From the NCBI GenBank assembly GCA_905178155.1, contig CAJINV010000008.1, positions 2,170,001 through 2,234,000 of the forward strand: DNA of 64,000 nucleotides, written 5' to 3'. The notes below the pieces were generated by a model, which saw nothing but the letters and a program-made list of their open reading frames with translations, ran no database searches and was not told the DNA's origin. Position 1 is the stretch's first letter; every line of letters begins with the position of its first letter. Position numbers and translations under genes: made by a program. Positions 20,398 to 61,168 of the stretch are shown in pieces. This DNA comes from Amoebophrya sp. A120. Lineage: Eukaryota > Protista > Dinoflagellata.

Positions 20398-22408
20398 TTG
20401 GTACATGGAACTAAAAAAGGAAGCCTTCAAATTCATTGCAAGAGGTGGTTCTTCATTCATCCGTAACGAAACCCTCCGACAGGAACCGATGTTCGAATGA
20501 TGTTAATGGTGGTCGTGGAAGCCTCCTGTCTGTGAGTCGTGGAAGGTTTTGTCTGTGAGGCGTGGAAGCCTCCAGCGGGGGGCGGTTGGATCGTAAGCTC
20601 GAGGCTTATTACTTATGGATACGGGATGGCGAGACGCGCCACATTTCTTCTGGCGACGGCCTTGCGAGGTTTGGGTTTGCTGACAGCGCTGGACGTGTTT
20701 TGTTCTGGATGCGCCGAGAGCTCGCCTCTCATCGGCGGCGCGGGCCCGTTGTTCAAGATGTCTTGCCTGTTGGCCATCTCACTCTTAGGCGGGAGCCGTG
20801 GTCGTTTTACCCTTTGCCCACGAGTGGACTCCGCCTGGCGGGCACGCCTTTCCGGGGTGTGTAGGACCATCGTTAGCCGCCTCTACTAAAATCTAGTATG
20901 CGTGGTCAAGTCTAGATCATGAAAGCACTCGCCGGAGCTCTTACAGCCCCGAGGACGCCCCACCCCACTCCATGCGTCCATTAAAGTTCCGATACGCCAA
21001 ACCCCACGTCGAGAGAGAGATGTATATGAATTTGGACGAGAGGGAGGTGCTGGACAGTGGCTAGTAGGAAGTGTGAAGGTAGAAGATGTCCACCTACAGC
21101 ACCCATCCAACGGCAAGCATTCTGTCTTATGTTGTTATGTAACCATCACGCCTATTGTTTCATCGGTTACAGCTTTTTGCTACCATTTGTTAGAAGGAAC
21201 CAACCGATGTTCGAATGATGTTAATGGTGGTCGAGAATAAGACTCCAGGACCGCATTGCGTCGAGGACTCCAGCACCGCATTGTGTCTTGCACGCGCTGG
21301 CGCGGTAGGCTTATTTTCAAGTCTTGCGAGCACCGAAATGTCTCGTGCAAAGAAGTTGCGTTTTGTCGTCTGCGAAAACATCTAGTCCACAAATTTTCCA
21401 AAGTACTTTAGCGCCGATCCTGTAGCGCCGATCCCGCGCGCCGCACCGTGCTCTTGGTACTTGCAAATGTGATACGTCTTTTATGCAGGATCTTCCACGA
21501 CCGCGTATTTAATTTGTTTCGTGTATGCATTACGTGTTATACATGGTGTCAACGCGGCGCGTAAATCTAAATGTGCCCGCCTGATCAAGCGGTGATTCGG
21601 TGCCTGAGAATTTTTGTTTCGAGGCGTTGGATCTTCCGTTTCCTGAGCTGTTAGCTCCATAGTTACTTCCCATGACCGTCAGCGAGTCAAAGAAGCGATC
21701 AAATTGTAGTTACTTATGTAGGACCCGGCTTAGGAAAAAGAGGTCTGTCCACGTCAGGGCGGTGCCTGGCTGCGAAGCGTTAACGCCCCGCTCCTGTCTA
21801 CTGAGGGATAGGGTAAGGGACCTCGCTTTGCCACCACCTATTGAATCCACCCGTCCAAAAATCAACATCTTTGTGAAATTCCGTTTTTAATTCGTCTTCG
21901 ATCTACTCGACTGTGTGACGAAGCTAGTTAGAGGAGGAAATTATAAAGTAGTAAGAGTCTCTGTCTATGTCACTCCTTGAATTTGTTTCAGTGCATTGCA
22001 GTGATCCTTTCATTTCCAAGAATCGTCCTCACAGTACTAGCTACCACAAAACCACGACGCACTGTGCTCATCGTTATCGCCTACTTACTTTTTATCTGCG
22101 CGTCGCCCTTGTCTTCTACAAAACCGAGGCTACAACTTTATCCATCCCCTGAGAGGACGGTCCTGCTCGACATGTTGAAGTTTGTGGATGGGAACCTCCA
22201 AGGGGACCGTTTCTGTCGTTCGAAGAAGCGCTGTCGCACCAGTAGGGGGAAAAACAAAATATCGGACCGTAGTTCATTTTTCGTTGAAAGGCCGGCCGTC
22301 GGAAAAATGTTGTCTTCGGTGATGAATTTTTTATCCTCGATATCGGCCGCGTGGATCCTGAATGTGGTGGAGGACAAATGCTTGTTCTCCCGACGTTGGG
22401 CGTGGACG

Positions 22409-43400: not shown

Positions 43401-46400
43401 GAACACTCGCACACACTTCCACGCGCTTGCTCCACTGAGCTCGTTAGCAGCAGCAGTGTCGTGAATTCTCTCCGTTGCAAGTAAGCAAGCAAGTGCCGCA
43501 AGTCTCTGGCTGCGTTACATCCTGGAGGCCCAATTCATCCAACTTCATCGCCTTCATATGGATCAAGCGGGCTCTGATTCATGCGAACCAATGGACTCAG
43601 CCCGTAAGCGGCAAGGCCATTGCTTCGAGGTAAAACATGAACAAAATCACAGGGATCCAAGTACAGCCAGGAGAGCAATCCGAACCAAATCGACGGACTC
43701 AGCCCGTAAGCGGCAAGGCCATCGATTCGGGCGAAACTACTAAAGCGATCAAGTAAGGAGCAGAGCAATACGAACTCGACATCGGGGCCGAATCAATGGA
43801 CTCAGCCCGTAAGCGGCAAGCCCATTGATTTGATCACTTCTATCGTATTCCGGCGACTTGATCTAGCTAGTTCAGGGCGTTCAGAGCTGTCACTTCGTTC
43901 GGGAATCAATGGACTTAGCCCGTAAGCGGCAAGCCCACTGATTTGATCATTTGGGAACAGGCATCATGTGGGGCGATCGTGTTGCGTGTGTGCGGGATCG
44001 ATTTCCATGACCAACAAAGAGAAAAGATCGCAGAAGGGAAAGCAGAAAGGATTTTAGAGGGGGAAACTCGACGGCTGTTTTGGAAGAGGAAACAAATTAG
44101 CCGAGAACTTTAGAAGCGAGCCAAAACTGGAAGGAAGTTCATTGTAGAAGGGAAAAGCAAAAGGGTCGGGGCGGGGCATCATGGGAAGCGTTCGCTGTGT
44201 GTCCGCATCTCTGGGGTGGGGCAGTTGTGCGGCCGGATGTCGTCAGTAGGGTGTTGCATATATTCGGGCGCTTGGGCGAGGAGGGTCGGGCGAGACTCAT
44301 CTCCACACGGTGGAAGGAGCTCGATTCGGCTTTGCCCGCCATCTGGGTGTTTCTTTTGTCTTTGGGCTGCTTAGGTTTCCCGCCTTTGGGCGACTTTATT
44401 TTGTTGGGCAACCTGCTCCGGAATCGGAAGCGTGAACAAATCGAAACACCGGAAAAGTAGCGAAGTTTTAGAAGCCAAGGCGGAGCGGGTGTCTCCCGCC
44501 TGGGCGTGCACCTAAAGGGCGGCGGTGGTCGATCGTGCTGCTGTGGGCCCCGTGTTCCGGCTACTCCGGATCGCAATCGGTGGAGGGCGGGACATGCACA
44601 GGCGACAGGCGCTATCCAGTCAACCAGGCAAGTTTTGCAATCTTCCAAGGCCAGACATATTTGCACTTGATAGTGGCGGGGCCTCACTACAACGACACGA
44701 GTGATGCATTGGTCATCTGTGGTGCCCACCTCTATGCCCCTGCGTCGGCTCTGAACGACGTACAAAGCCGACTCAATGTGGCGCGGTATGTGGAAACTCA
44801 AATTCCTGCTGCCCTGATGCACGGCGCGCAGTCGAGTAGTCTCTACGACACATATGCAGAACTTCCGTTGCAATATCGATACGGCAGGACCACAGAGTGG
44901 CAAGAGCACGAGCAAGAGAACCAGCAAGCAGGGGGAGGGGGAGGGGGAGGGCAACATGGAGGGCGTGTGCGAAATCTACTTAGCAATCTGGAATCAAATT
45001 GTTGGAATCACGTTGAAAGTGAATTCAAGTTAATGCAATCAAGTTAATGAAATCAAGTTAGCAATGAAATCAGGTTAGTGGGTAATAGAGTCAGGCTGTG
45101 CGTACTAACTTGCGCGCCTCATCTATCCACTGCAAAGATGTCTGGTTCTGGACGGTTGCAACATTTGTCATGCAAGTTGTCTGCCACGACGACGACCCAC
45201 AGCCTCTGCATGTGAGCGCTGCATCTTTTTCGATATTCATTTATATAGGTTGGTAAGAGAGGGAATCAGACCGAACAGATGGAATCAGACTAGTGCATGG
45301 AATCAGACTAGATGCGGAATCAGTTTAGTGGAATCAGAATAGTGAATAGAATCAAGACACTTGATGCAGACTTATGCGCTGAATCTGCATCCCCATCCGT
45401 CGTCGAATGAATGTGGTCGGTCATTGCGTTCTCTGTCGTATGCATTGGGCATGTTGATGATGCCCCCCTGCAGGCATCGCTGTGGCCCATCGCTTTCTCG
45501 TCACTTCATCTGTTGGCAGTGCGTGTTCGCTGCTGCGCTTCTATTTCAGGCGGGACTTGGCTTGCGTGCTCTGTATGTCTGCGCATCAGGCCACATCTAG
45601 ACGGAGGGGGGGCAAGGTTTTCATAGTATATCTCGCATAGAAATTGTTTTCGGCGATCCGTGGTGGTCAGCCCGGGCCAACTTCTATCACAGGCTCCGGA
45701 TCATTGTCGGCGCACTCGCTTCCTCATTCTCGCGACGGCACGACTGGCAGACCGCGCGCGTGTCATGGTTGGATGACGGGGGCGGGCCCTAGCAGGTACT
45801 ACATGCAGATGCCTTGTTTTTGGTTTCAGATGCCATTGCTTTCTTTTTTGGTCAGGCGTCCGGGCCCGGGCCATGTCAGCCGGTAAAGCTTTGGCAATAT
45901 TCCGGCAATTTTTTTCAAATGCCTAGGGGCGCCGCCGGCTTTCCGTCGTTATGTGTGCCGGGTCCTTTGGCCGTGGGTGCCGGTTTTGCCCCCGCCCCCG
46001 GCCGTGGTCTTTCCCAGTTTCTGGTCGTGCTCGTGGGCGCCTTGGCCGTGGCCAGTTATTTTCGGGCTGTTCGATGTTGGGTTTCGTGTATTTCGGGGCG
46101 TGGTGGTGTGAGGCGTGATGGTTCGGCTGCCCGTCGTTTTTGTTTTGTGGTTGAAAACCTCTCTCATATTCCGACCCGCAAGCCCTGCGCTCGTGTCGCC
46201 TCGTCATGCAATTCTGTCGGATCTGTCCTGAAAGGTCCGACAGAATTGCATGGCGGGACGAAATGGTCGCCATCTTCGTTTTACTCAAAACAGCCCGAAA
46301 CCGGCATGAACTGCAGCAAAAGCTGCAACTCATGCTGCAACTCATCGTGCAATTTTCGGCCGAACACCGTCCCGACCATTTTTGAAAAGCTGCAATTGGC

Positions 46401-49400
46401 GCTGCAGTTGGCCGTGCAATTTTCACGCAATTTCAGGTCCAGGTCCGAAAACAAAGCAAATGGCTTGGTTTTCGTACCCCCCCCTGAAATTGCAGCTTTT
46501 TTGCGCACTCAATTGCAGCGTCAGTTGCAGCTTTCCGAGAGTGGTGTGGGACAGTGTTCGGGACACTTTTTGCACAGTGAGTTGCGCACTTTTTGCACAC
46601 AAGTTGCACACTCTCCTGGGATATTGTCAAAAGTTGGGGGGCGAAAGTGATGCTGCATGTGGCGCGCCCGCGCCTGTTTCCTGGGGTTTCTTTCAGAAGC
46701 GTGCCGCCCATAGCTGGTTGGAAAAATGCGCGCAGGGTGGTGATGTCGCGCATACCCCCGATTGCCCCCCGCCGGTCTCCGGGGGTTGTCTGCAAAAGAT
46801 GTCTCCGCCCCAGGCGCAAGGCCCGGCCGCAAGGCGGTGTTGCGATGAAGATGCCCGCCTGCGCCGGATGGGTGTGTTGTGAGTGCCCGCGGGGCGCGTC
46901 GATCTGCGCAGCGGGGGGGCCTCTTTAGTCTATGTCTAGGCCCGCCAGGGTGCTGGTGTGCCTGTGTGTTGGCTCCTCACCTCTAGAAAGACGCCTGGGC
47001 CGCGTGAAAAATAAAACCCACCAGGGAAGGCAACAGCACTCCTACGCAGGCGCGGCCATAAAAACTGCAGCGCCTGCCTTGGCGCAAAAAAAACATGGCA
47101 AATCCCGACGGTATGCTGCGAATTTCTTGAGGGATTAGAACAGCGCTGAAGATCACCTATTTCGTGTCTACACAGCGTGGCTGATCTGCTCGGCGATACA
47201 GAAAAAATAAAGCTACGCCCGAGCTAGAGATACACCTACGGCGTGCCTCTCGTGCGGGCCCGAGCAAAATGCTGTCGGTTGGGCCCTCCCGCCGCCGCCT
47301 GCGCTCTTCTCCCTACGGGATCGGGCCCCAGTGGGGACAAAATAAAAAAAATGATGTGCGTGTTTTTTTAAAAGGCCGCGGCCGTTTTTTTTCTTTGGAT
47401 TTTTCAAAGAAAAAAAAAACTTGCGCGCCTCTTACATGGCGCGCGCGAAAGGCCCCGGCCTCTTCAGTGTGTGTCCAGGGGATTGGCGTGACTTTTGGGC
47501 TTGCGCCGTCTTGGTTGCCGATAGGACGCAAACCCTCGGGAGCCGCCGGCCTTTGGGGTGGTGTCTGCCGTTCGCATCGGGGGAATATTTGTGGCCCTTG
47601 ACCGCTGGCGCGGAGTGAGAGGGACGAACGCAAGGACGTTTTTGTCGTAAAAGCAGCACCTCCCGGCGCCGGAGGCTTCGAGGTGCACGCAGATCATGAC
47701 TCCGAAATCTGTGGGCATCTATCTTCGAAGCCCGCGGCGACGGGGCGCGCTTTTTTTACGACAAAAAATTCCACAATTTACGACAAAAAATCTAAAAAAA
47801 TTTAAAAAAATCAAAAAAAATTGCGTCGCAAGAAAAACCTTAGGGGTCTGCGCTACCTTGGGGAATTCTGCCATTTTTCGTCCCGCCCTTGTCATTTTTC
47901 TGACACGGACTTGACATGGATTCCGGATTATTTGTCGTAAGATTTCGCCGTCAAGATTCCGTTCTGAAAAATGTGGGTGGGACATTGTGTCTTGTCTTCG
48001 GTGGAGCCTGATGATGAAGGTCTTCTTGGTGTCTTGCAAGAACCTCGCGTGTGTCCTCCCAGAGGCCGGGGCCCGATCGGCGGGAGGGTTGGTTTCTCAC
48101 TTGCGTGGCGACACACCCGCGGCCCACCTCGGAGCCACGGAAGGGGCCGGCGGTTGGTCTTGGGCGCGCCTACCATTTCCTCATTCCGTTTTTTGCCCCT
48201 GATATTCCTCGGACGCCGGCGTGGTGCATGGCCGCGACATAGTTGGCCGATGGGCGTGCGCGCCTTCGCTTTTGCCTCACCCCCTTTTCGTTTTTGCCAA
48301 TTTTTTTTTTTCCGCTTTTTTCCAAACTTAAAAATCACGGCTATTATTTTTTATTTTATGGGCCCACTGGGGCCCGATCCCGTTGACTTCTCCCTCCGGG
48401 CGTCGTTCCAGCGTCCTCCGCTCAGTAGCCCGCGCCTACCTGTGCAGGCGAGCAGCGTCTTCATCTAGCTACTCCAGTAGTCCCCACGTCCCACCACCGC
48501 GGCCGACGCAGCAAGGCAAGCGCTTCTGGGGTTTCAAGCTCGTAGTGTAGGGCTCAGATTTTGACTTCTTCGAACCATGGGAGTGCCGCGGGATTCTTCG
48601 AGGGGAGTGTGGGCAAACCATGGGAGTGTGGGAAAGCCATCCGATCTCCTGGGAAAACCATGGGAGGTGGGAAAGCCATGGGATTGGCGTGGGAATTCTT
48701 CGAACAGGGCGGGGAGCGTTTTAGCCCCCGCGGCCGCAGCAAAACCATAGGCGGGCGCGCGGATTCGTCCTTCCGGGTGGTTCCGCGGGGCCGGTGCTAG
48801 CTGGGGCGACTAAAGCAGCAAAGCCAGCTCGCTGCTTTTTGGTATGGGTCTGGTTTCTTTTCTCTCGGACAATCCTCCAGAGTCAGGAGCGCTATCCCTT
48901 CCAGCTTCTGGGGACACATGGTGGCGACGGGTGTCATGAGCAGCATACATCACCCGAAAAGAGCCCGGCCATCAAGCACTCCTGTTGTCCCGTCCGAAAG
49001 GATGACGAGGGGAACTGCGGCCGCACTAAATTGATCGGCTACATTGGGTGCCCGAGTAGCGTGATGGACTATGAGCCGGCTGCGAAAGCTTTTCTTGAGC
49101 TTTGCCGCACGCGGTACGGCGCGCGCGGACCCTTCCCGGAGCATTGGGGCTGATGTCTGGGATGGCACCAAGTCCGTGAGTGAGAAAATGTTGGGCCGGC
49201 TCTACACGCCCGCAAAGGGGCTGGGGTTTTTACGGAGAGCGAAGGCTCGGAGGCCGAAGGCGAGAAGGAGGGGAGGCAGCCTGCTCCACCGCCTCGCGTA
49301 CTTAGATAGACTCGGGGGAGCGACCGCGCTTGGTGCGCGACCTGTGTCATCGTGTGAGAAATACGACACCAGCGAAAGTGCCAGGGAGGAAGAGGATTTC

Positions 49401-52400
49401 AGAGGGCATGGAGGTGCTTGCCATACTGTGCGGGCAAATGCTTACGCAGCCAGCTCGCGACGGACCTCGGGCGCTGATGGACAGGCTCAAGGCAAAAGCC
49501 GAGCGCCATCGTCGGGATATCGCCACGAACATCGTCGACCGCCTGGCCGACGGCCGGGGGGGTTCGTTTCTATTGGACTTCGTCGGGCAGCTGGTACGGA
49601 GATGGTTCCTGTTTGTTCAAGAATCAGCCTGCCCGGAGACGCTGGGGAGTTCCTGTCTTTTCACGAAGTAGCTCCCAGACGATGCATAGGGCGGGCCACT
49701 TTTTGACTTTTCATTCATTGCAGTGAGTAGGTATGTAGCCCGCGCGCGTCGTTTCTTGATATTCTGAGGAAAGGGAACAGGTGTTGGCTGTCCAGCAGGC
49801 CCCTTGGCATTCCTTCCAGCAGCCACCCAGAATGAAGCATCGAGCGTGGTTGGAAAGACGACCAAGGCGGAAAGACCAGCGAGCGGCTTTCTGCAGATGT
49901 GTCGCAGCGAGGGTCTCGGTGTCCTGGGGAAAAACGCCCCCGCCCCAGAATCAATCCGCTCGCTGCGAGGGGGTCCGCGGCGCCAGTGGCGCTGGGGTGA
50001 TAGTTGTGCCGACTACGTGACGATGATGATGGTGATGCGTGAAGGTTTGTAGTCCGCATCCCAGGACGAGCACGAAGCGCGCCTCGTCGCGTTTCGGCCC
50101 CTATAGTGCTGTAATAAACAGGGGAAGAGGTGGATGGCTTTGGTGTGCGGCTGTCCTTGCGAACCAGCAGGCACAGCACTGACTTACTTTTCTCCGCGGG
50201 GCAGCTGAGTGGGGCAGCGGGGTTCCTGGGCCATGAGCTAGCAAGCGGGGGCGTGCTACGATCGGCTCTGCCACCGTTTGCCATTGCCATCAGATCGACC
50301 ACCTTTGCAGGGAATCGCAAATGAGGGAGTCCTGCGGTCGGCTCGTTCCTCTTTGGGCCTCCCGCCGGCGAAATGCAAGAACAGGAGCCCTCCTGTCGGC
50401 TCTTCTTAGTATTGCAGTTCCCGCGCGCGTATTTGTGAGCATGTCCTTGTCTGGAAGATCGACTGGTTGGGGTTTGAGCTTGCTCTGCAGCGCGTCCTTC
50501 CATGTCGGCGCACGAAGCGACGTCGTATGTAGTGAGGTCGCGCGCGTTGGTTCTGTCCTGGCGCTTTTTTTGCCCGTCAGACAGCAAAACGGCCGGCAGT
50601 TATCAAGCGGCCGGAAGTGTTTTTTGACATAAAAGGTCACCAATTATCAAGCCGCCGGGGCTTTGCCATCAAACAAGCACGGGCCAACTCTATCGATTAC
50701 CGCTTGACAAAACGACGCAAGGGAGCCGGCAAGCAAGGGGGCCGGCAAAAGGGGGGCCCCTCTGAGGCGCCCACCGCCTTGGTTTCTGGTGGCTTGGGGC
50801 GCTCAAAAAGGGGCGCCGACAAAAGTCCAATAATACAACAACCGCGAACCCGCATGCTATTGGCACCATTTTGGCCCACTTTTCGAGGTCGCAAAGCCGG
50901 CCACCAAAGTCGGGCATCTGTAAGGCGGGGAGCGGGCCAAACGCTGCGACTTTTCAACAAAAAAAACCAAAAAACGCGAACGCCGCCAAAAGCCGAAAGC
51001 CAATCCGCATGTTGTGGCCCCCTTTAGGGGGCCAATAGTGCCGGCCCCGGCGGAGGCCCTAGGGCGGCCATAGCGTGTGGGAAAGCGTTGCTTCTCTGGA
51101 GGCAGCAGGGGCGCGGCTTTTCCACAAAAAAAACCAACAAACGCAAATGCCGCCAAAAGCAGCAGGCTTTCAATCCGCCTGCTAGGGGCCCGATTTGGGG
51201 CGCCCAAGGGGCCGACCCTGGCGGGGACCCGAGCGGGGCCACGGCATGCGGGGAAGGCCTTCGGGCTTTGCAGACAGGAAGCGGGCGACTTGTAGCCGTG
51301 ATATCTACCGCCCCCGACACCATGCGGGGCAACGCTTTGGAGGGCGGCAGTAAAAAAAGCCACTGCGGCCTTACTATCTACCCCCGCGGGCGCGGCTATT
51401 ATTGGTGTCTATTATCTATGGCCCTCAGTCGCACTCGCAGCGCGTCGCGCGGAATCCCCTTGATGCATATAGTCCCGCGCCGATTTCTTTTCCCTCGTGC
51501 CGATTTCTCTTCCCTGGCTGCGCGTCAAAAAATGGCTGCGCTGCGCAAGCTTTCAGCTGCCAGACATATTTGTAGTGGTGGTCGGGGATGTTGGTGGAGC
51601 TCCACCGCCAAAGTTTTCAGGAGGCAGGAAAGCGCGCGGAGGAGTATCCGATCCATCTACCAGGTCGCCGGGCTACGTACGTTGGTGTGGGCGCCGATTT
51701 CAGCTGCAGCGGCACCATAGTGCTACGTAGCGCATACCCACCGAACTCAACCTCGAGAGTATTTGGCTCTGTTGTTGGTTTCTCGTGCGCCAGGGCCTCC
51801 CTTCTGTCGTAGTATAGAAATCAATGCGGGAGTATACGTGGCCCGCTCGGCTTTGTTTTTCTTTTTGTGCCGAGTTCGGGCGCTGCAGGTTACTTCCACA
51901 GCGGGAGTGGGTTCCGCGGAAGGTAGTAGCTAGACCACCTGACTTATCTAGTTAGCCCAGCCCTTAAGGCAGAACGAAGACGGGGAGCAGCGCGGGCGTT
52001 TGCTATCCATTCGAGTGCGTAGCTAGCATGGCGCTCCAGCGACTTTGAGGACTTTGGCGCAATATAATTCAATGCACTTACTGACGTCACAGGTTGCGCC
52101 CGAGCTCGGCGCGCTATCGCTCTGCGACTTGCAATACGGTGGGCCGGCGATTGGCGTCATGGATGCGCGCGCGCAAGAAGGCCTCGGTGGCCGCGGCGTT
52201 AAGCACATAACGCGCTATGTGGGCAAGCGGGCATTTGGGCAGTGGGCGGGGCTGCCATCTTATCTTGGCTAAAAACGTACCCACCCCAGCCGCGGCATCA
52301 CAATCATGCAGAGGAAGTGCCAAGTGAAGGCCCAGACACCTGGCGCGGGCCTGTCCGAGAGAGACACAATTCCCGCTCTCGTTTTTGTATGTGTGCGTGT

Positions 52401-55400
52401 AGTTGTAGAAACCCTTACTCTTTTAAGCGCCAGCATTGTCATCAGCACAGGCGGATGGGTATGGGCTCGCGATCTGGATGCATGCAGGCTCACTTGTCAT
52501 GCAGATATCTGAGCTACGAAATGAGGTGGCTAGGTTTTTGTTTAAGATTGATACGTGCTCCACGCATGACATGGGACAGTGAGCAACGCGATTGGGTTTG
52601 GATGGTTGCGAGCAATTTGGCGACAGCGACAGCGCGATCTGCAAACGTGATTCCGCAAACTTGATTTCAAATCTAAACGTGATCCCATAAACGTGATCCG
52701 ACGATAAACGTGATTCCATTAACTTGATTCCAAACGCAAACGTGATTTCAGATTTTGGCTAACTTGATATGGGAGATTTCCGAACACAAGTGCACGCATA
52801 CCGATGTTTCTGCTGCCTCGTGTGGCAACGAGGCGGCCGGGTTTAACTGGTGGCGGTAGGCACAGAAAAGGACCCATCCCCATCCAATTTGTGATTGCAA
52901 AGCATGCATATTCCATTAAATCCTGTGTCTGTGATGCAAAAAATGGATGGGGATCGTGGATTTTGTTCTGTGGATAGGGATGTCGGATTTCCTGGAGGGC
53001 GCCGGCAGTACGTCAGTCGCCTTCGTCTTTTCAACCGCGGTGGTGATGCAACTTTATTCAAGCGGCTGAACAACGGGACCGTGTGGCTGGATCCGCCCAT
53101 TACCGTGGACGAAGAAGATCCGAGCAACTACGGCGACATCGGCAGAGAGCTGTGGGCCCTGCTGGACGGCGGAACGCTGGTCGCGGGGAAAGACTATGTC
53201 CAGTTCGGGACTGTGGCCACTGGGGAGGAGGGCGGCACTTCGATCTTCCTGGACGGCGCGGGCATCGCGACAAAGCAGCCAGTGCGCCGCCTCTATGTGG
53301 CCGCACCGTTTGACCGTGTCCCCACTCCCGGTTCCGCTTACTCTTGCAATAACGATCCAATCCACATTTGTGGAGCCCTGCTGTACGCTCCTGCGTGGAG
53401 CCTGGATGAGTCGACAAGCTATCTACAGCACGCCTGGCACCTCCCGCCCCAGTCGTTCCGCCTTGTCCCGCGGACGATGCTCGAGGCCTCGGCTTCGTCC
53501 CTATTGAATCCCGGGGATGCCAGCGAACGTAGTCCTCTGAATCGAAAGCTGGGCCACGTGGATAGTTGCCAAGGATCCTTAGTCACGGCCACTACCAGTC
53601 TGGGGCAGTGGTGGGAAGTGAGCTTCAAGGACGGGCAACCCCGGCCCATCATGGGCTTCGTTGCGTTCAAGCAGACCCAGAGCAACTACGATAACAACAT
53701 TGACGACGCGCCGATCTACCTCAATGGCACACTAAGAAGTGCCATTCGCAATATGCCCACCCTGCCTCATTGGAACGCCCGAGGTGTTCCAGACTTCCAC
53801 GACGCGGGCACGTGGGTGTCCATTGGCCAGGACGCTTCAAAAATTCGCATATCCGACCCGGCTACCGCGAGGGCTAGCGGACTGAACGGCATCACGCTCT
53901 GTGGGTTTTGGTTGTTCCAAAGCTGTGTGGGGGCAACGTCTTCGGACGCCAACAACTATCGGCTCGAGAGACTAGCAGACCAGGGCGACCCGGCGGTGCG
54001 TCAGAGTTTTGCCTGCACAGAAGAACTCGGGCGGGCTTTCTCAGAGTATGACTACCTACCAGGGGTGAATGGGGAGGACGGAACTCTACCGGGGAACTGG
54101 CCCTGGAGGGAGTGCGTCCAGTGGTGCGCGCAGGAGCCGAAGTGCGGGGGCGTCGACTACGAGTTGGATGGCTGCTCCTACTCCCCAGCTCGCGGAATGT
54201 GCCGTCCCCGTAGAAGCGCCAGCACGCGCGCAGCGCTGGATCCCACCGCGGATGTCGCGCGGGACGCACGGGTTGCCCTGGTCATGACGGACGGCTGCCG
54301 TAGGAGTCTCATGCCCGCACGTCCGCTCCGCTTCGTCAGTAAGACCGACTTGACCACGTTTTTGCTGAACAATAAAGGTGGCTATCACCTTACCAGCACA
54401 CCCCGCATCGACCGCTCTGCCAACGCGGAGTACGGCTCGTGCGCGGCGGCCAGTTCGGGCCTGTATGACGCTTCGGGCCCAGACAACCCCGACTACTCCT
54501 CGCGGGGCTTCTGCAATCGATACAGCCACGGAGAAACCAGCACCGATATCCTGCAGCTCGAGGTGCAGTCCACGGACACCGCGGGCAACGATGTCAGTGG
54601 TATGTACGTCGCGGGGGTGGTATCAACTGCAAATATGTCTTGCTCGTCTAGAAGGGTTGAACTTGTGATGCTGTCTTTGGATGCTAAACCTTAGAAATTA
54701 ATGTTGCATGATCAGCAAGAGGAGACCAGTACTAGTTTGTTCCACGCGGAGAGGCCGTTTGTCATGCGGAATAGGCAGCAGAAAGTCCGGAAAAATTATC
54801 TGTGAAGATGCTGGCTCATGCATTACAGGCATCATGGTTGATGCAGAATATGTATGACAAACGCAAACCTGGCAATCTCCCAGACCCAGACATATTAATT
54901 TGCAATGCATAGTTGGTCCTGCAGATGCGGGCGGGGGACACCAACAGGGGAGTGTCGCGCGTGTACGTGCAGTACCTACCAAAGGGCAATCCGCAAATGG
55001 GCGTCTATGTCCCGGGATGCACGCGCAGCGATCCGAGGGGCTCGGCCGTGTGTTTGCACGGCTGGCGGGAGGTGGACAAAGGCGCCTTCCTGGAAACCGG
55101 GATGGACTGCCGCTCCGGAGAGGAGCAGTCGGCCCGTGTCCTCTACTTCGGGGAGCCCGTGTTGGCCAGCTCGATTCGGATCATTGGGAAGAGCCCGGGC
55201 CTGTCACCCTGCGACACCGCAAATGTCGCCTACCGCGCGGAGCTGATTCTTCGCGCCCACGACGGCGTGCGGCAGGTGGGGCGGCGCTTGGAAGCGGGAG
55301 ACGGAAACCTGAAGATACCGGGGGACTTGTCCGTCTTCCCACCTGACTACGACGCTTGTCTGCAGTGGTGCGTGGACCATCCGACCTGCGTGGCGATCTC

Positions 55401-58400
55401 GTTTTACGAACATTACAAGTGTCAGCCCTTCAAGGCTCTGGGGAAGTACCAGGGGCTGGAGACACGTTTCAGCAGCGTAGTCACCTTCGTCTCGCACAAG
55501 TATCGGGTCAAGGAGCACGGCATGCGGCTCTTCTACAATCTGGGGACTCCAGGGTACCCCATGTGCCCTCCGGAGCTGCTATCCCACAGAGAGCTAGAAT
55601 ATTATCTCACATTTGTTCGTAAAAATAAATGTGAACTCACAGTTGTAGTTGAAAAATTTCCCATAGGGTATCCGTGTGTTTGCTGCTGCATATCCAAATA
55701 GTATGCTAGTGTGCTAGCTCCTTTCTGTGCGATAGCCGCTTGGTTTGCCAATAGCGGACGAGGATCATTGCGAAGAAGCGATACATATCCTCACAAAAAA
55801 CGTCCCCACCGAGATTTGTATCAGTAGCTGGAACACCTACACCAACACTTGTAATGCGCATCCCCATGAGAGGGAGAGGGAGAGGTATCTCTCTGGTCGT
55901 GCTTCGTTTGGCATTCTTTGTAATCGCTGTTGTAACTAAAACTACAGGAACAGGATAAGCAGTGACCCGCACCTTGCTGTCCGTGCTAACCTGCACTACG
56001 ATGCTCACAGATAGAAACTGTTGATGCGTCACTTCCAACACTTCTGGCTCTGTGTTGCGAAATTCCTATCGTGACTATGTCGAGGGGGCGGCTTTCCACA
56101 GGATAGTACACTTTATCCAATACCTCCGGGTGGAGCAGCGGAAAGGTCAAGCCCGTCGCTATCAACAGGAAAAATCCGCCCTCCCCATATCAAAGTGGCA
56201 ATGAATCTGTGTTGCGGGATTTGTCTACACAAATCAGCTTTGTCTTTCAGTAGAGGACTGCAGGCAGATGCAGAGCCTAGAAGGGGCAGGCTAGACGTGG
56301 GCGCTCAGCTGCATGGCAGACGTCTCGTCTGCCCTGTAGTTGGCGCAAAAGCATTACCAATCGCCTGCGTCAAGCGGCCGACGCTCTGGCTTTGCTCTCC
56401 TGCAAGACAAACCAACCTGACTTGTGGCCACAAATCAGCATCACAAATTTTCAAAAGGATGCCTGTTCGATATGGGGAGGGGGGATTTTTCCTCACAATA
56501 GTCGCTCCGATGTGCTGGGTCACTTCGCTTACCAGCAGCCGCTCTCTTCCAACCCGGAAGGACCGGGGCCCAGCGCCTCGTGCAGGGACGCAGCAGGGGG
56601 CTGGAGTGAAGTTCCGTTCGGTTGCAGCGTGTCCAGAAAACCAGTGAATGTCGGGCGGCCACACTTCCGGGGTGGCACCCACACGGGCGGCGCACCCACT
56701 AATGAGATGTTTCTGGATCCGCGCTTATCAAAATGAAAAATCCCCCCTCCCCATACTAAAACGGAGACTTGTGTAGCATGATTGGTGACCACAAATCATG
56801 TCGTCACGCTAGAAGGCAAAAGATGCGGACTGTTGTGCTGGCTGGCGTGGGAACGCCTTGCATCTTCAGCATAAAAACAGGAGGCACCTGGAAGTGGGAA
56901 ACAGCATGACAAACTGCCTGCAATTCAGGCCGCAACTGCGTCTCGTGGCCTTCTAGGAATACAAGTCGATTTGTATCCGCAAATCCAGCATCAGAAATTT
57001 CCTTTCCGATATGGGGAGGGGGGATTTTTCCTCGCAATAGCGCTGCCACCGCCTGCCTTATCAGGTGCTGTGTGTAAAGCGCGTGTACGTTGATTACTCC
57101 CTGTACCGAGTGCGAACCCTATCAAAAGGAAAAATGCCCCTACCCCATATTGAAACGGCGATTTGTGTAGGATGATTTGTGACAACAAGTCATGTTGTCA
57201 TGCTAGAAGGCAAAAGAAGCGGACTGCAGTGCTGGGTGGCGTAGGGAAGCTTTGCGTCCTCAGCATGACACCAGGAAGCAACTGGAATAAATGGGAAACA
57301 GCTTGACAAACCGCCTGCAATTAAGGCCGCACCTGCGTCTCTTGGCCTTCTAGCAATACAAGCCGTACGCAAATGCAGCATCTAAGGACTGACCCCTAGC
57401 AATACAAGCCGTATTGGTTGAGGACTGACCCCTTCGTTCTAAGTGCCGTCAGCCATGGTATCCGCAAATGCAGCATCACAAACGTCTTTTTCAATATGGG
57501 TCGGGGGAAAAATTTTTCTTCGCAATAAACCAAAATAACCGGGGAGCCCGTCCGTTGTTACCGTGGTGCGGAGCGTGAGCAGCGCATCAGCAAGATTGAG
57601 TGCAAGGAGGTCGGCTTGGGCATGGCGTTGACGGCGCCTCTATTCTTGCCGTACTTGCGCGACCCATACCAAGGCGACCCACACGGTCTCGGTGGGCGAG
57701 AGCATTTTAAATGGGGAGCTGCAATGGAAGAGGGGGACTCAACTTCTGCCGGTTGCCAAACCGGGAGCTCAGGATGGTGCAGTGTCCCCGCCGGATGCTC
57801 ATTGTCGGACACCAGTGGCCACGTCCACTGGAACAGTGCTAAGTTCGACGAGGCCTGTTGTGCAGTGGGGTACAATTTGATTTGCGGCACTCGGCAAACA
57901 CCACCGCTGCCCTATCAAGAGGAAAAATTCCCCCTCCCCATATCGAAACGAAGTTTCTGATGCTGGATTTCCGTACACAAATCAGATTTGTCCTGCAGTA
58001 GAGGACTGCGGGCATATGTCAAGCCTCGGTCGAGAGGTTTTGACGTAGGCGCCTAGCATGGCAAACGTGTATGCTCTAAGCCCAACAGCATCACAAACCG
58101 CCTGCAAAATGCAGGGGGCTCTCTGGACTTGCCTTCTTGCAAGACAGACAAGATTTGAGGTCACAAATGTGCATCACAAATTTTCAGACGGATGCGTTTT
58201 CAATATGGGGAGGGGGAATTTTTCTTTACGATATGCCCCCGCCCCGGCGGATCCATCCCAAGTTCGAGCGCGATCGATTGTTTTTTACCCGCACCTATCA
58301 AATGTAAAAATGTCTGGGTCTGGAAAGATGCAACTTGTGATGCTGCATTTGGATTCCAGAAAAATCTGTATTGCAGGAGTACCAAAAGGAATGTAATTTT

Positions 58401-60068
58401 TGCTACGCGGAGAGAGCATTTGTCATGGGGAATAGGCATCAATAAGCTTTCAAAAAATCTGTGATGCTAGGGCATGCATCACAGACATCAGGGCTCATGC
58501 AAAACATGCATGACAAGTGTCAAGATCTTCCAGACCCAGACATTTTTACAGTTGATAGCACCGAGGATGTCACGGACCCCACCCGGATTGCCGCGCAACC
58601 CTTTCGTATCCACGACTACCCGGCCATGAAGTGGTGGCACCAGGTGGAGGGCCACCCCCTGGAGCTGCGCGTGGACCTGGACTGGGAGGACCACGGGTAC
58701 GGAAAAAGGGCTGCGGGGATTCTTATCAAGTTGTTCTGCTCTCCCTTTGCGACGCTGATGGCCGAGCGATGGATCAAGCAGGTTCCGCGCAAACGAAAAA
58801 CGGAGACGCTGCTCTTCTATCGCGACGTGGACGACATCGTTGCGTTCGCCTATTCCGTACGCATTGCAAAATAAAATGTCTGCTGGAAGGTCTGGAAGTA
58901 GCTTGTATATGCTATGTATAGAAGTGTCGACGCCCGCGACATGAAAATGAAATGATACGTCGCCAAGCATGAAAATTTTCGTCGAGGTTCTGGCCCTAGT
59001 AGATCAATGTCCTGCAGCATTCGAAGCTGCTTGCGGCGGCAGTGCAAATAAGAGTTCTTCGTTCAGATAATGCGTAAAAGCTGGCACGACGAGAGTCGCC
59101 ATCGTGAAGGGTGCGCCTGATATCACCTGACTATGTGGCACTTCTGATGCTGATCAGCTTTGTGCATCACAGGTTTACTTATTTGGTGTTATTCAAAATC
59201 GAAATGCGAATGCGCCATGCAGCGAGACTCTTTCAGTTTCACCAACCTGACGATATCTCCCTACTCTCCCAACCAGACCAGCCAGACGTGATATTTGCAT
59301 TCGATATCCCTACTCCAACGACAATATCAAATGTAAAAATGTCTGGGTCTGGAAGATTGCGAGATTTGTCATGCATATTTCGGATCACGCAAATGGCGTC
59401 TGATGCAGGCAAAAGCATCACAGGTTTTGAGCACGCCTCATGATGCCTCTCCCGCATGAGAAACTTCTTACTTGCGTGCCAAGAAATGGACAGCCTTTGG
59501 CGCTCATGCAACACAAATTTTTGTGTGTTCCAGAGTTTGCATCACAAGTTCCAACCCTTCCAGACCCAGACACTTGTACATTTGATAGACAAGGAGATGC
59601 GCACGTGCTGGTACGAGTTTTACGCCAAAGTCGGAGACAAACCGGGGCAGATATTAAAGTGAAAAATGCCCCCCACCCCTGAACTTGCAAAAATTTGTGA
59701 TGCGAAGTTTCCAAATGAAAACTTTTTGCCATGCATGAAAGGAGTATGGATCTTTCTGATGCAGAGTCTAGGCGAGGCGTGTATCGCATCGCTTGCATGA
59801 CAAGCGCCGCTCTTGCTGGGGTCTCTTGCAATACAAATTTCCGCTATTCACGATTGGAAACCTGTGATGCTGATAGATGCAAGAGGGCGAATGTTTCATT
59901 TGGAAAGGTTTGCAATACAAATGCTCCCAAGTTCGTGGGTGGGGGCATTTTTCATTGTAATAGCAGAAGTTGTTGCTTCATCATTTCTGGGTGACTGTCC
60001 GGTACTATCCTACGCAACACCTGATCACCCCCCTGGTCATTTGTCATGGACCAAAAAAAAGTAGCTAG
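22409..60068 (+). CDS. Giant 22-exon gene, about 2181 aa, putative secreted or membrane-anchored adhesin with F-type-lectin/galactose-binding-like and PAN/apple-like repeats
   Basis: Exons (left TSD kept): 22409-23451, 23709-23788, 24111-24195, 24469-24580, 24907-24960, 25218-25897, 28662-29192, 29520-29576, 44678-44902, 52775-52856, 52982-54620, 54917-55579, 55740-55785, 56111-56159, 56506-56725, 57045-57119, 57533-57912, 58239-58295, 58563-58857, 59312-59324, 59593-59651, 59968-60068. Total 6546 nt, in frame, ending in TAG. Hydrophobic N-terminal stretch IAMILCAILGVEVYYF; motifs CTHTD..NWWRV.F..LFNR and ECVQWCAQEPKCGGVDY. Start uncertain (upstream in-frame ATG at 22172). Confidence 0.8.
23452..23703. 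mobile_element. Introner, family E
   Basis: TIR TATGTAGGCGTCAGGATTGAAATAGAC / GTCGATTTCAGTCCTGACACCCCCATA; TSD ACACT/ACACC; removal fuses ORF 21977 to ORF 23596. Confidence 0.85.
23789..24105. mobile_element. Introner family A, reverse orientation
   Basis: TATCAAAACGAAAAAAACCTCCACCCCATAT / ATATGGGGAGGGGGGACTTCTCCTCTCAATA; TSD GGACG/GAACG. An in-frame GT-AG alternative (23788-24106) also exists. Confidence 0.85.
24196..24463. other. Probable old introner-derived intron with decayed left TIR
   Basis: Right end ...TTTTCCTCGGATA; direct repeat GAAAA(CG) at 24191 and 24464; removal keeps the frame (HYAFENGTSLV). Confidence 0.5.
24581..24901. mobile_element. Introner family A, forward orientation
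   Basis: TATCAAAAGGAAAAATTCCCCCTCCCTATAT / ATGTGGGGAGGGGGGATTTTTCTTCTTGATA; TSD ATGGG/ATGGC; spliced LNPNGEAL aligns with uninterrupted PGVNGEDG near 54060. Confidence 0.9.
24961..25212. mobile_element. Introner family C
   Basis: TIR core TGCTCAGCTGTTACAATTTCAAACGTTACAATAGA / TCTATTGTAACGTTTGAGATTGTAACATCTGAGCA; TSD ATGAG/ACGAG; spliced WTWNECAQFCAQEP matches WPWRECVQWCAQEP near 54100. Confidence 0.9.
26018..28603. mobile_element. Nested non-autonomous TIR element with internal palindromic and tandem repeats
   Basis: 21-bp inverted repeat TAATTAGCGGCCCTTTCATAA / TTATGAAAGGGCCGCTAATTA; no convincing ORF. Confidence 0.7.
27550..28425. repeat. CCTACCCGGG/CCCGGGTAGG inverted repeats followed by an about 90-bp tandem array
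   Basis: Recurring units CCCTCGAAATTTGGGCGGCGCGGCAGCGCCGCGAAG...GCTATGTGAGGTTTT. Confidence 0.85.
29193..29514. mobile_element. Introner family B (right end ACA)
   Basis: TATCCACTGCAAATATGTGTGGGTCTGGAA / TTCAAGACCCAGACATATTTTCAATGCACA; TSD ACGCA/ACTCA; spliced LAATQPVRRIYV matches IATKQPVRRLYV near 53270. Confidence 0.9.
30080..30425. repeat. 82-bp GC-rich tandem repeat, about 4 copies
   Basis: CCCTTGCCGGCGATTCTCTTCCGTGTTGCG at 30118, 30200 and 30282, plus a diverged fourth copy. Confidence 0.9.
32371..33593. mobile_element. hAT-like non-autonomous element, copy 1 (in copia-2 gag)
   Basis: Ends CAGTCAGA / TCTAACTG; 8-bp TSD ATCCAGTT/ATCCACTT; homologous to 37348-40288; contains the N gap. 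Confidence 0.75.
32848..33174. other. Assembly gap
   Basis: Run of N. Confidence 1.
37348..40288. mobile_element. hAT-like non-autonomous element, copy 2 (in copia-2 RT)
   Basis: Ends CAGTCAGA / TCTGACTG; 8-bp TSD TCGTGCCT/ACGTGCCG; RT sequence resumes after it. Confidence 0.75.
37579..39289. mobile_element. TIR element with subterminal GGAATCAG arrays, nested in hAT-like copy 2
   Basis: Left GGTAAGAGAGGGAATCAGACT with (GAATCA)n; right (TGATTCC)n with AGTCTGATACCATCGACGACC. Absent at the equivalent site of copy 1 (about 32600). Apparent 4-bp TSD ATTT/AATT. Confidence 0.75.
40854..41892. mobile_element. TIR element inserted in copia-2 RNase H
   Basis: TIR TCAGGCGGACGGCCCGGGGCGGG / CCCGCCCCGGGTCGTCCGCCTGA; flanking direct repeat GGTTTCG; internal ATTTATCCC repeats. 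Confidence 0.8.
43386..44016 (-). mobile_element. Solo LTR related to copia-2, inverted
   Basis: Reverse complement begins TGTTGGTCATG and carries four copies of the LTR hairpin motif; TSD AATAG/AAGAG. Confidence 0.8.
45124..45250. mobile_element. Orphan left end of a family B element
   Basis: TATCCACTGCAAAGATGTCTGGTTCTGGA; no partner right end found. Confidence 0.6.
45252..45600 (+). mobile_element. Second copy (left part) of the GGAATCAG-array element
   Basis: GGTAAGAGAGGGAATCAGAC... collinear with 37579-37950. Confidence 0.7.
50690..51030 (+). repeat. Dispersed GC-rich repeat, copy 2 (related to 2170-2520)
   Basis: Collinear shared blocks with 2170-2520. Confidence 0.7.
52857..52976. 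mobile_element. Short (120 bp) degenerate introner
   Basis: Inverted repeat CACAGAAAAGGACCCATCCCCATCCA / TGGATGGGGATCGTGGATTTTGTTCTGTG; TSD decayed; removal gives NWW(R/D)VGF, like NWWRVEF. An in-frame GT-AG alternative (52856-52977) exists. Confidence 0.7.
54621..54911. mobile_element. Introner family B
   Basis: TATCAACTGCAAATATGTCT / CCAGACCCAGACATATTAATTTGCAATGCATA; TSD GGTGG/GTTGG; fuses ORF 52895 to ORF 54913 (YVAGVVLQMRAG). Confidence 0.85.
55580..55734. mobile_element. Short introner, family D
   Basis: TATCCCACAGAGAGCTAG / CTAGCTCCTTTCTGTGCGATA; TSD GCTGC/GCCGC; frame restored. Confidence 0.8.
55786..56105. mobile_element. Diverged family-A-like introner (320 bp)
   Basis: TATCCTCACAAAAAACGTCCCCACCGAGAT / ATGTCGAGGGGGCGGCTTTCCACAGGATA; TSD ATACA/GTACA; join CEEAIHFIQYL. 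Confidence 0.75.
56160..56500. mobile_element. Introner family A, reverse orientation
   Basis: Family A TIRs; perfect TSD GTCGC; frame restored. Confidence 0.92.
56726..57039. mobile_element. Introner family A, forward orientation
   Basis: Family A TIRs; perfect TSD GCGCT; frame restored. Confidence 0.92.
57120..57527. mobile_element. Introner family A, forward orientation, with internal duplication
   Basis: Family A TIRs; TSD AACCC/AACCA; duplicated CTAGCAATACAAGCCGTA and AGGACTGACCC blocks. Confidence 0.88.
57913..58233. mobile_element. Introner family A, reverse orientation
   Basis: Perfect TSD TGCCC; reverse complement of the 5641 copy along its whole length. Confidence 0.93.
58296..58557. 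mobile_element. Introner family B
   Basis: TATCAAATGTAAAAATGTCTGGGTCTGGAA / TTCCAGACCCAGACATTTTTACAGTTGATA; perfect TSD GCACC. Confidence 0.93.
58858..59306. mobile_element. Diverged introner family B
   Basis: TACGCATTGCAAAATAAAATGTCTG..GGTCTGGAAG / CCAGACCAGCCAGACGTGATATTTGCATTCGATA; TSD TTCCG/TCCCT; frame restored. Confidence 0.7.
59325..59587. mobile_element. Introner family B
   Basis: Family B TIRs; perfect TSD GACAA. Confidence 0.93.
59652..59962. mobile_element. Introner, family A variant
   Basis: TATTAAAGTGAAAAATGCCCCCCACCCCTGAAC / GTTCGTGGGTGGGGGCATTTTTCATTGTAATA; perfect TSD GCAGA. Confidence 0.9.
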
Positions 60069-61168
60069 CACAGGTCCGCCAAGAGGTAGCTCTCGCTCTG
60101 TAGGCGTCATGTTCATTTTGGACGATGGCAAAGAAATCAAACTGAAACTCGCGTACAATTGATGACGTTTTGCTGAGCGCGGGTGGCCGAAAATATACGC
60201 TGCCGGCCCATTTTTCACCACCCCCTGCCAGGCGGCTAAAAAGGGAACTCCCGGATTCGCGCTGAAGGGAGCGAACAGGAGCAAGATCATCGGGATAGGA
60301 TCCTGGTTCCGGCTGAATTTGTTACCCTGCTCGGTGTTAAGTTTCACCTATGTCGTGACAGCATGATGACGAATGATCAATATGAATTCATGTGCAAGCA
60401 GAGCGTGCAGACACTTGTCTCTCTCATGCGAAGAACGCTGCGTGAGCGTGTCGTCTTTTACTGCTGCTCAGATCAACATGATACATACCATACAAAGAAA
60501 AGGGTGGGGGCAGGTGTTGCGCAGGATAAGCACGAACCATCCGACCCGCGGACGCTAGCGACGTTGAGAAAGCGGGCCACGAATAAAGAGCCGGCGCATT
60601 TGGAATTGTAAAGACCGCAGCGAGAAGGAGAAAAAGAAACTACACTGGCAGCATGTGCGACGCGGCTATCGTTAACAAGCAACAAATTTGCGTTCCGTAC
60701 TACTCACGACCATACTTCTGATTGATAGATTTGTTCGTCAATGTGGTGTCTACAAAAATGGAAGTGCAATGTTGATACAACGTCCCTATCTGGAAATAGC
60801 GCTAAATGGCGCTGACTGTGGACTCACTTCGGTGTCCAAGGCACTTGCTCCGCTTCTTTTGTACAAACGAAAAAGGTAGCTGATAAAGAAGGAAAACAGA
60901 GTGCAAAGGAGAGGCTGGCTCCTACTTTACTATTATTGCCGGCCAAAGGAATGATTTGACAATCTGGAGCAAGAGCCGTGTCAAAAATGAAAGTGAGACG
61001 AAAGAGATTTGACGACGATGAGGAGCGAGGGAAGCTGCTTCTGGTAATCTTGTTAATCCTTGAATATCAATGGATACAACTCGATGCACATAGATAGCTC
61101 CTGGCGTTGGGGTGGCAAGCACATCGTCGCCTAAAAGCAGCCTGCTGACAGCAGTAGGAACTAAAACT

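What the first reader, a model, noticed from the sequence alone, without database searches (positions are those of the whole stretch)
53990..54310. Internal paralogous repeat supplies the empty site, indicating intron gain after domain duplication
Seen: the PAN-like block CTEELGRAFS..NGE..WPWRECVQWCAQEPKCGGVDY..SPARGMCRP..VALVMTDGCR is uninterrupted here. Its paralogue at 24510-25400 is cut by two elements (24581, 24961). Likewise 53270-53400 is intact while its paralogue is cut at 29193 and 29577, and NWWRVEF near 28880 is intact while its paralogue is cut at 52857. Inference: these are independent insertions after repeat duplication, and the alignments fix the excision length.
Basis: seen in the sequence. 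Interest (0 to 1): 0.7.

Follow-up and report, generated by a model that had tools for sequence, protein, structure and literature searches.

The report
Transposon introns in duplicated protein repeats
One 38-kb gene of a parasitic dinoflagellate carries 22 transposon-like introns without normal splice signals, and they sit at different places in its duplicated domains, so they were likely gained after the domains duplicated; this is a clear case of an already described intron invasion.

Summary
Observation confirmed; interpretation mostly right; phenomenon already published. The five named positions are the first bases of elements with terminal inverted repeats and a 5-bp direct repeat, and the sister repeats are uninterrupted there. 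Removing 22 such elements with one fixed cut (1 nt before, 4 nt after) gives one open 2,297-aa frame (22172-60611) that reproduces two public 'partial' Amoebophrya A120 proteins letter for letter, so the repeats are internal to one gene. The element at 29577 is 15.1 kb long; others are 2.8 and 7.8 kb. None of the 22 introns can be GT-AG. A spliced contig confirms element+5 for 7 introns. Seven introns lie in repeats, none at homologous positions; repeats are old (dS 1.2-1.5), direct repeats mostly 4/5 identical: gain after duplication is likely. The claim that alignments fix the excision length holds at only 2 of 5 sites and misleads at one. These are the A120 introner elements of Farhat et al. 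2021. Not found in the papers read: a constant cut register and multi-kb introners. Against: the same contig retains the end of the 7.8-kb intron.

The parts
22172..60611 (+). One gene model, 23 exons, 6,894-nt coding sequence, 2,297 aa; hydrophobic stretch at aa 85-103 (possible membrane anchor); galactose-binding-like (N, D) and PAN-like repeats
   Evidence: equals P0003 at aa 1-1049 and P0001 at aa 1046-2086; C-terminus resembles that of P0002
54011..54310 (+). PAN-like repeat 2 (aa 1438-1537), no intron; lies in the 1,639-nt exon 52981-54619
   Evidence: Pfam PAN_1 21.7 bits for P0001 against cut-off 21.4; inside one piece of the X1 contig
24512..25403 (+). PAN-like repeat 1 (aa 503-605), cut by two introners; 52 of 96 aligned residues identical to repeat 2
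24581..24901 (.). Introner, 321 bp, direct repeat 4/5; intron 24580-24905, ends GT..GG; 79% identical over its length to the element at 57913, in the opposite orientation
   Evidence: junction as in P0003
24961..25212 (.). Introner, 252 bp, direct repeat 4/5; intron 24960-25216, GT..GA; alignment fixes +5; no relative in the window
   Evidence: junction as in P0003
25458..25896 (+). D repeat 1 (aa 624-769)
25898..28656 (.). Enlarged introner, 2,759 bp, direct repeat 4/5, holds a tandem-repeat block; sister site at 53915-53919 is empty
   Evidence: junction as in P0003
28661..44771 (+). N repeat 1 (aa 770-997), exons 28661-29191, 29519-29575 and part of 44677-44979; holds the empty site (28886-28890) for the 52857 element
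29193..29514 (.). Introner, 322 bp, direct repeat 4/5; intron 29192-29518, AT..TC; here the paralogue alignment would wrongly suggest +8
   Evidence: junction as in P0003
29577..44672 (.). Enlarged introner, 15,096 bp as assembled, inverted repeats 19/24, direct repeat 4/5; contains an N gap (32848-33174), broken copia-type retrotransposon pieces and other repeats
   Evidence: RVT_2, E 1.4e-16, at 36978-37379; junction as in P0003
44769..53422 (+). N repeat 2 (aa 997-1241), in tandem with N repeat 1; 112 of 212 aligned residues identical
44981..52769 (.). Enlarged old introner, 7,789 bp, arms 72% alike over 92 nt, direct repeat 0/5; left boundary chosen with the help of P0001; its last 159 nt are retained in the X1 contig
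52857..52976 (.). Introner, 120 bp, direct repeat 2/5; intron 52856-52980, GT..GA, cut fixed to the base by the X1 contig; in-frame GT-AG and GC-AG pairs within 4 nt are not used
53453..53920 (+). D repeat 3 (aa 1252-1407), no intron; 51 of 136 aligned residues identical to D repeat 1
23452..24463 (.). Three upstream introners: 23452-23703, 23789-24105, 24214-24463 (left boundary of the last chosen with the help of P0003)
54621..60528 (.). Twelve downstream introners starting at 54621, 55580, 55786, 56160, 56726, 57120, 57913, 58296, 58858, 59325, 59652, 60006 (155-523 bp)
   Evidence: the first six checked against the X1 contig; the last six rest on the open frame and likeness to P0002

Best explanation
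The stretch is an intron-free copy of a duplicated domain inside one 38-kb gene whose 22 introns are transposon-like elements with inverted ends, and these elements were likely inserted one by one after the domains had duplicated. Shown: element anatomy, 5-bp direct repeat, one open frame after removal of element plus 5 nt, no shared intron position between repeats, and spliced sequence for 7 introns. Inferred: a non-autonomous DNA transposon is moved by a transposase supplied from elsewhere and duplicates 5 bp of its target; in the pre-mRNA its two ends pair, and the cuts fall at a set distance from that stem, 1 nt before it and 4 nt after it, so exactly one copy of the duplication is left and the protein is unchanged whatever the target sequence or orientation. 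Three elements later took in kilobases of other repeats and, by the public models, still splice because only their ends are read.
For: One fixed cut on 22 elements gives a stop-free 2,297-aa frame and reproduces P0003 and P0001 exactly. The X1 contig (0 other letters in the 5 listed pieces) fits the model at 9 of 9 landmarks besides the anchor; element+5 holds singly for 2 introns and in sums for 3 and 2 more; X5 contigs hold these introns (52704-56233 unbroken). 0 of 22 introns can be read GT-AG or GC-AG under any equivalent placement; at 52857 and 54621 the contig passes over in-frame canonical pairs within 4 nt. 0 of 7 introns in repeats share a position. Repeats are old: dS 1.23 (PAN), 1.46 (N), saturated (D); dN 0.42, 0.46, 0.68. 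Direct repeats are young-looking: 82 of 110 bases identical, 4/5 at each of 24581, 24961, 25898, 29193, 29577. The 24581 element has full-length relatives at 79% and 76%. Same-family elements lie in both orientations in this gene (24581 against 56160 and 57913). Left ends start with TAT in 19 of 22 and right ends in 21 of 22, as described for A120 elements (PMC7789003 section 11).
Against: No outgroup or true nucleotide-level empty allele was found, so polarity rests on parsimony and rough clocks. The elements at 52857 (2/5) and 44981 (0/5) look old, and 52857 and 24961 have no relative in the window. Five of the seven empty sites lie in one 1,639-nt exon, which is also what loss through a spliced copy would leave. 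Elements were partly recognised by their direct repeats, which inflates that identity. The upper limit of the cut register rests on one independent junction (52857) plus two whose left boundaries I chose after seeing the public models (24214, 44981). Junctions upstream of 52611 have no RNA check of my own. The X1 contig runs unbroken through the last 159 nt of the 7.8-kb intron.
Confidence: 0.85

Rival explanations
1. The introns are older than the domain duplication and were lost precisely from the sister repeats, for example by recombination with a spliced copy, or a repeat arose from a spliced copy.
For: Five of seven empty sites lie in one long exon, 52981-54619. The 52857 and 44981 elements have eroded direct repeats.
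Against: It needs seven losses, in both directions between N1 and N2, with no position kept in both copies. The five introns whose empty sites lie in the long exon all keep 4/5 direct repeats while synonymous sites between the repeats are near saturation. A gap of that length among 23 exons is not rare under random gain (my rough arithmetic: about 1 in 10).
Confidence: 0.07
2. The locus was one gene, but the multi-kb insertions now break it: the downstream half is transcribed from inside the 7.8-kb insert and the halves act as separate or truncated genes.
For: The X1 contig begins at 52611 inside the insert, with stops in all three frames of that part; the first in-frame Met would be at 53477. 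The public annotation has two partial models. The 15-kb intron holds an assembly gap.
Against: P0001 begins upstream of the 7.8-kb intron and crosses it by a non-canonical junction, P0003 crosses the 2.8- and 15.1-kb introns, and the two overlap by 4 residues. That gene set was built from transcript alignments (PMC7789003 section 25). All exons keep an open frame. One contig may be unspliced pre-mRNA.
Confidence: 0.15
3. The elements are removed by the ordinary spliceosome at nearby GT-AG or GC-AG sites, with small indels tolerated.
For: 6 of 22 introns start with GT under the fixed cut; in-frame canonical pairs lie within 15 nt of both ends for 11 of 22.
Against: The other 11 of 22 have no such pair; the X1 contig skips the canonical pairs at 52857 and 54621; the public proteins match the non-canonical cut for introns 1-16.
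Confidence: 0.03

Closest known systems
Introner elements (IEs) of Amoebophrya sp. A120 (Farhat et al. 2021, PMC7789003; sections 10, 11, 12, 16, 25 and supplement legends seen)
   Same: Non-canonical ends, inverted repeats starting with TAT and ending in a run of A, direct repeats of 5 bp, repeated families, lineage-specific positions read as gains.
   Different: The paper calls splice sites variable relative to the hairpin (Fig. 3 legend; inverted repeats 1-5 nt from the sites, Fig. S23 legend) and gives a mean length of 240 nt; here one register fits all 22 introns and three are 2.8-15.1 kb. It polarises gain with orthologues, not with internal repeats. Figures S19-S23 could not be seen and may already show the register.
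TIR/TSD introners of other eukaryotes (Gozashti et al. 2022, PMC9860276, and 2025, PMC12130899; passages seen)
   Same: Non-autonomous DNA transposons that become introns on insertion; tens of introns in single Amoebophrya genes are noted in PMC12130899.
   Different: Those described in the passages carry or co-opt recognisable splice dinucleotides; here 0 of 22 introns have a GT-AG or GC-AG reading.
Euglenid nonconventional introns (PMC12501133 abstract; PMC11282704 passages)
   Same: Ends brought together by pairing of inverted repeats, non-canonical junctions, set spacing between stem motif and exon edge, lengths up to several kb. The closest 'works like'.
   Different: Euglenid motif is CAG/CTG with 3 and 5-6 nt spacers and a purine at the exon start; here the stem starts with TAT, with 1 and 4 nt spacers. 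Unrelated lineage.
A120 proteins with PAN and F5/8-type-C-like repeats (P0002, P0004-P0007)
   Same: Same N, D and PAN-like modules; P0002 is 65% identical over aa 1223-2297 and also has both PAN copies.
   Different: P0002 lacks the N1-N2 pair between its D repeats; its introns were not available. Relatives were found only under the A120 label, bar one weak bacterial hit.

Membership tests
Amoebophrya A120 introner elements | Terminal inverted repeats of 8-20 nt that can pair | tested here: met
   9-19 of the first 20 bases match ungapped in the 22 elements (element 19 re-bounded); six end pairs fold as duplexes at -23.6 to -51.5 kcal/mol, no shuffled control
Amoebophrya A120 introner elements | Direct repeat of 3-5 nt overlapping the exon-intron boundary | tested here: met
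   Five columns at 15-19 of 22 against 3-7 of 22 outside; absent at 2 of 22 (24214, 44981)
Amoebophrya A120 introner elements | Inverted repeat starts with TAT | tested here: met
   19 of 22 left ends, 21 of 22 right ends; definition
Amoebophrya A120 introner elements | Non-canonical splice sites, removed from RNA | tested here: met
   0 of 22 canonical; 7 of 22 checked against a spliced contig; 16 of 22 agree with public proteins
Amoebophrya A120 introner elements | Repeated copies forming a family | tested here: inconclusive
   Of the five named, 24581 has full-length relatives, 29193 and 29577 share end sequences, 24961 and 52857 have none in the window; the bin holding 52857 has X5 depth 1628 against about 46 beside it. 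No whole genome was held
Non-autonomous TIR DNA transposons (MITE-like) | A cognate transposase that recognises the ends | not testable with these tools
   No genome held; PMC7789003 section 16 reports none in A120, PMC12130899 assigns A120 introners to diverse TIR transposons
U2-type spliceosomal introns | GT-AG or GC-AG ends | tested here: not met
   0 of 22 under any equivalent placement
Euglenid nonconventional introns | CAG/CTG-type motif at positions +4 to +6 and -8 to -6 | tested here: not met
   Ends listed begin with TAT at +2; motif. Works alike, not a member
Euglenid nonconventional introns | Excised as full-length circles without a lariat | not testable with these tools
   Needs intron RNA; feature
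PAN/apple domain | Pfam PAN_1 above its cut-off | tested here: inconclusive
   P0001 21.7 bits against 21.4; P0003 11 bits; P0002 21.6. Fold not obtained
F5/8 type C / F-type lectin (galactose-binding-like) domain | Profile or feature match for the N repeat | tested here: inconclusive
   No Pfam hit in P0001 or P0003; Atlas feature score 0.96 to F5/8 type C clusters; relative P0004 has PF22633 at E 1.3e-8
F5/8 type C / F-type lectin (galactose-binding-like) domain | Fucose-binding His...Arg-x-Asp-x4-Arg/Lys motif (recalled, from no call) | tested here: not met
   No match in the model, nor in P0002 or P0004

The most novel reading that the evidence does not exclude
A120 introners are spliced by a ruler mechanism: the paired ends alone set the cuts 1 nt before and 4 nt after the stem, whatever the dinucleotides, orientation or length (120 bp to 15 kb), which removes exactly one 5-bp target duplication. 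That would make every exonic insertion silent, explain the invasion in a lineage reported to lack U1, and allow the gene set to be predicted from inverted repeats alone.
Probability: 0.55. Interest if true: 0.7.

Novelty: new member of a known kind. Interest (0 to 1): 0.4.

Why it matters
The intron invasion of this lineage is published, so the finding itself is a confirming case. Its value is as a test bed: internal repeats give a within-gene control for intron gain, and the junctions give a concrete positional rule for a splicing mechanism that PMC7789003 leaves open. It also corrects an annotation (two partial models are likely one 2,297-aa gene) and warns that a diverged repeat is not a true empty site: it misjudged the excision length at 1 of 5 sites and could not decide it at 2.

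Tried and rejected
No whole genome held. Run search: no RNA holder listed; X1 is only guessed to be RNA. Raw-read runs X7 and X8 laid 102 and 3 reads, all partial and on element ends, so they say nothing about this gene; the joint table of that call was filled by X5 repeats. No reads were laid on 21.8-29.9 kb, so the junctions there rest on P0003. First readings dropped: two separate genes; a right end for the 29577 element at 51581 (44672 fits better); exons at 51590-51800 and 52558-52640 (not among the top 6 hits); an element at 25857 (no partner); a left end of the 7.8-kb element at 44973 or 44902 (the first is out of frame, neither matches P0001); element 19 at 58851 (frame broke; 58858 fits). 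Self-BLASTP printed only the self hit, so repeats were scored pairwise. Single-sequence structure prediction failed, pLDDT 31; no fold search followed. No outgroup: 15 pattern matches in metagenome contigs, none confirmed; 2 hits among 7,992 candidates; 7 hits in the 50% library, 6 labelled A120 and one weak bacterial hit. A blind test of the cut rule on a neighbouring gene (7400-11300) was abandoned because I could not fix its frame. No earlier scan findings. Literature searches showed no paper devoted to the A120 cut register or to multi-kb A120 introners; subscription papers are not covered and supplement figures could not be seen.

Full report
1. Observation. The PAN-like block is present in one open frame at 54014-54301, and its sister at 24515-25400 is broken into three pieces. 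An unbiased scan for elements that start and end with TA and have inverted ends returned 24581-24901, 24961-25212 and 52857-52976; an end-motif search gave 29193-29514 and a left end at 29577. The repeats score 255, 440 and 137 against shuffle maxima of 55, 58 and 45. The direct repeat is 5 bp wide (15-19 of 22 per column inside, 3-7 of 22 outside).

2. One gene, not two. The two blocks are 23-29 kb apart, with an assembly gap and retrotransposon pieces between them, so I first suspected two genes. The best partner for the 29577 end in 29700-52800 is 44672 (19/24 matches, next best 14; direct repeat 4/5). The exon after it carries the missing end of N repeat 1 and the missing first half of N repeat 2, each the top non-self hit among 2,237 stop-free stretches (scores 71 and 76). 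A further element, 25898-28656, joins D repeat 1 in frame to N repeat 1. Only after this did the protein search return P0001 and P0003, two partial proteins labelled Amoebophrya sp. A120 on a contig of the same length. Removing 22 elements, each with 1 nt before and 4 nt after it, gives a stop-free frame of 2,297 aa from 22172 to 60611; it equals P0003 at aa 1-1049 and P0001 at aa 1046-2086. Two left boundaries (24214, 44981) were chosen with those proteins in view and one (58858) to keep the frame. Introns make up 31,546 of 38,440 bp. The public models may come from the same assembly, so they are no independent check of the DNA; their non-canonical junctions, however, would come from transcript alignments (PMC7789003 section 25).

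3. RNA. The tool only guesses that run X1 is RNA. Its 3,498-nt contig lacks sequence that X5 contigs hold unbroken (52704-56233), with no mismatch in five listed pieces. The model predicts its coordinates at 9 of 9 landmarks besides the anchor: element plus 5 holds singly at 52857 and 54621 and in sums for three and two more introns, 7 of 22 in all. At 52857 the cut is unique: 52856-52980, GT..GA. In-frame GT-AG and GC-AG pairs within 4 nt are not used, nor is the same-length GT-AG at 54621. No reads were laid upstream of 51000. Against the single transcript: the contig starts at 52611 and runs through the last 159 nt of the 7.8-kb intron, with stops in all frames.

4. Gain after duplication. 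Seven introns lie in repeated modules (24581, 24961, 25898, 29193, 29577, 44981, 52857); none falls at a position shared with the sister repeat. The repeats are old: 54%, 53% and 38% amino-acid identity, dS 1.23, 1.46 and saturated, dN 0.42, 0.46 and 0.68, so they diverged under purifying selection. P0002, on another contig, also has both PAN and both D copies; D1 and D3 each score best against their positional counterpart, the PAN copies do not sort cleanly. Direct repeats start identical at insertion; they are 82 of 110 identical overall, 18 of 25 at the named sites and 22 of 35 in repeats (distances 0.31, 0.35, 0.51). The numbers are small and biased by how elements were found. The 24581 element is 79% and 76% identical over its length to elements at 57913 and 5641. 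The two oldest-looking elements (52857, 44981) are polarised by parsimony only. Five empty sites share one long exon, which keeps loss through a spliced copy alive as a minor rival. No outgroup was found.

5. Do alignments fix the length? Each junction was re-cut at in-frame lengths from -4 to +14. +5 wins clearly at 24961 (313 against 284 or less) and 52857 (74 against 63 or less). At 29193 +8 wins (180 against 163), against the direct repeat and P0003. At 24581 and 29577 scores are flat (341-364 and 149-159). At 44981 the junction lies in a low-complexity insertion. The claim holds at 2 of 5 named sites.

6. Mechanism. Shown: anatomy, constant removal of element plus 5, absence of canonical ends (0 of 22), same-family elements in both orientations within the gene. 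For introns 1-16 the only 5' offset that keeps the public proteins in all cases is 1; offset 0 is excluded by four introns, offset 2 by three, two of which are the boundaries chosen after the fact. Inferred: cut-and-paste or copy insertion by a transposase in trans with a 5-bp staggered cut; pairing of the ends in the pre-mRNA; cuts set by distance from the stem. The catalyst is unknown; PMC7789003 reports nearly all spliceosomal proteins but no U1 (section 10), so a spliceosome that reads the stem in place of the 5' site is my preferred guess, an endonuclease-ligase route the alternative.

7. The protein. A hydrophobic stretch at aa 85-103, PAN-like repeats at the Pfam cut-off, and N repeats with a feature match to F5/8 type C galactose-binding domains (0.96; relative P0004 has PF22633). 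Likely a surface adhesin or lectin-like protein of an expanded family; untested, and the recalled fucose-binding motif is absent.

8. What is known. PMC7789003 (passages; sections 10, 11, 12, 16, 25; supplement legends) describes these elements, their 5-bp repeats, TAT ends and strain-specific gain. PMC12130899 and PMC9860276 (passages) place them among transposon-derived introns. Euglenid introns work alike but have other motifs (PMC12501133 abstract; PMC11282704 passages). Four searches showed no statement of a constant register or of multi-kb A120 introners; figures S19-S23 could not be seen.

9. Verdict. Real, correctly located, and mostly correctly read; a new member of a known kind. Interest 0.4, carried by the testable cut rule and the very long introners.

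Noticed in passing
window 52611-52769: The X1 contig retains the 3' end of the 7.8-kb intron while 7 shorter introns are removed; unspliced precursor, internal start or trans-splice acceptor are all open.
   Followed up: partly
window 29577-44672: The 15-kb intron holds copia-type pieces (34800-42200, similar to the element at 12150-17300), repeats at 31570-32840, 37340-39530 and 42570-44030, and an N gap at 32848-33174.
   Followed up: partly
window 45124-51581: A probable second, nested element of the 29577 end family inside the 7.8-kb intron (17/24 end matches, direct repeat 2/5), and another at 52261-52553.
   Followed up: partly
window 51868-52301: Low X1 depth (4.1) inside the 7.8-kb intron over near-single-copy DNA; possibly a small nested transcript. 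The accession numbers of P0003 and P0001 skip one number.
   Followed up: no
window 12150-17300 (minus strand): Copia-type retrotransposon with gag (E 1.5e-4) and RVT_2 (E 3.2e-24) matches, split over several frames.
   Followed up: no
window 5641-5960 and 57913-58233: Two introners 93% identical over 321 nt in opposite orientation, 52 kb apart: a recent family expansion.
   Followed up: partly
window 56726-57039 and 57120-57527: Neighbouring introners 82% identical over 270 nt, 80 bp apart: possible local hop.
   Followed up: no
window 44902-44979: Gln/Gly-rich low-complexity insertion of about 26 codons in N repeat 2, where the public annotation splits the gene.
   Followed up: partly
window 1663-10924 and 63031-63904: At least ten more elements of the same type in neighbouring genes, some back to back (9191-9444 then 9450-9744).
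   Followed up: partly
window 2077-2515 and 50550-51020: A shared non-coding repeat with an internal inverted repeat, one copy inside the 7.8-kb intron.
   Followed up: no
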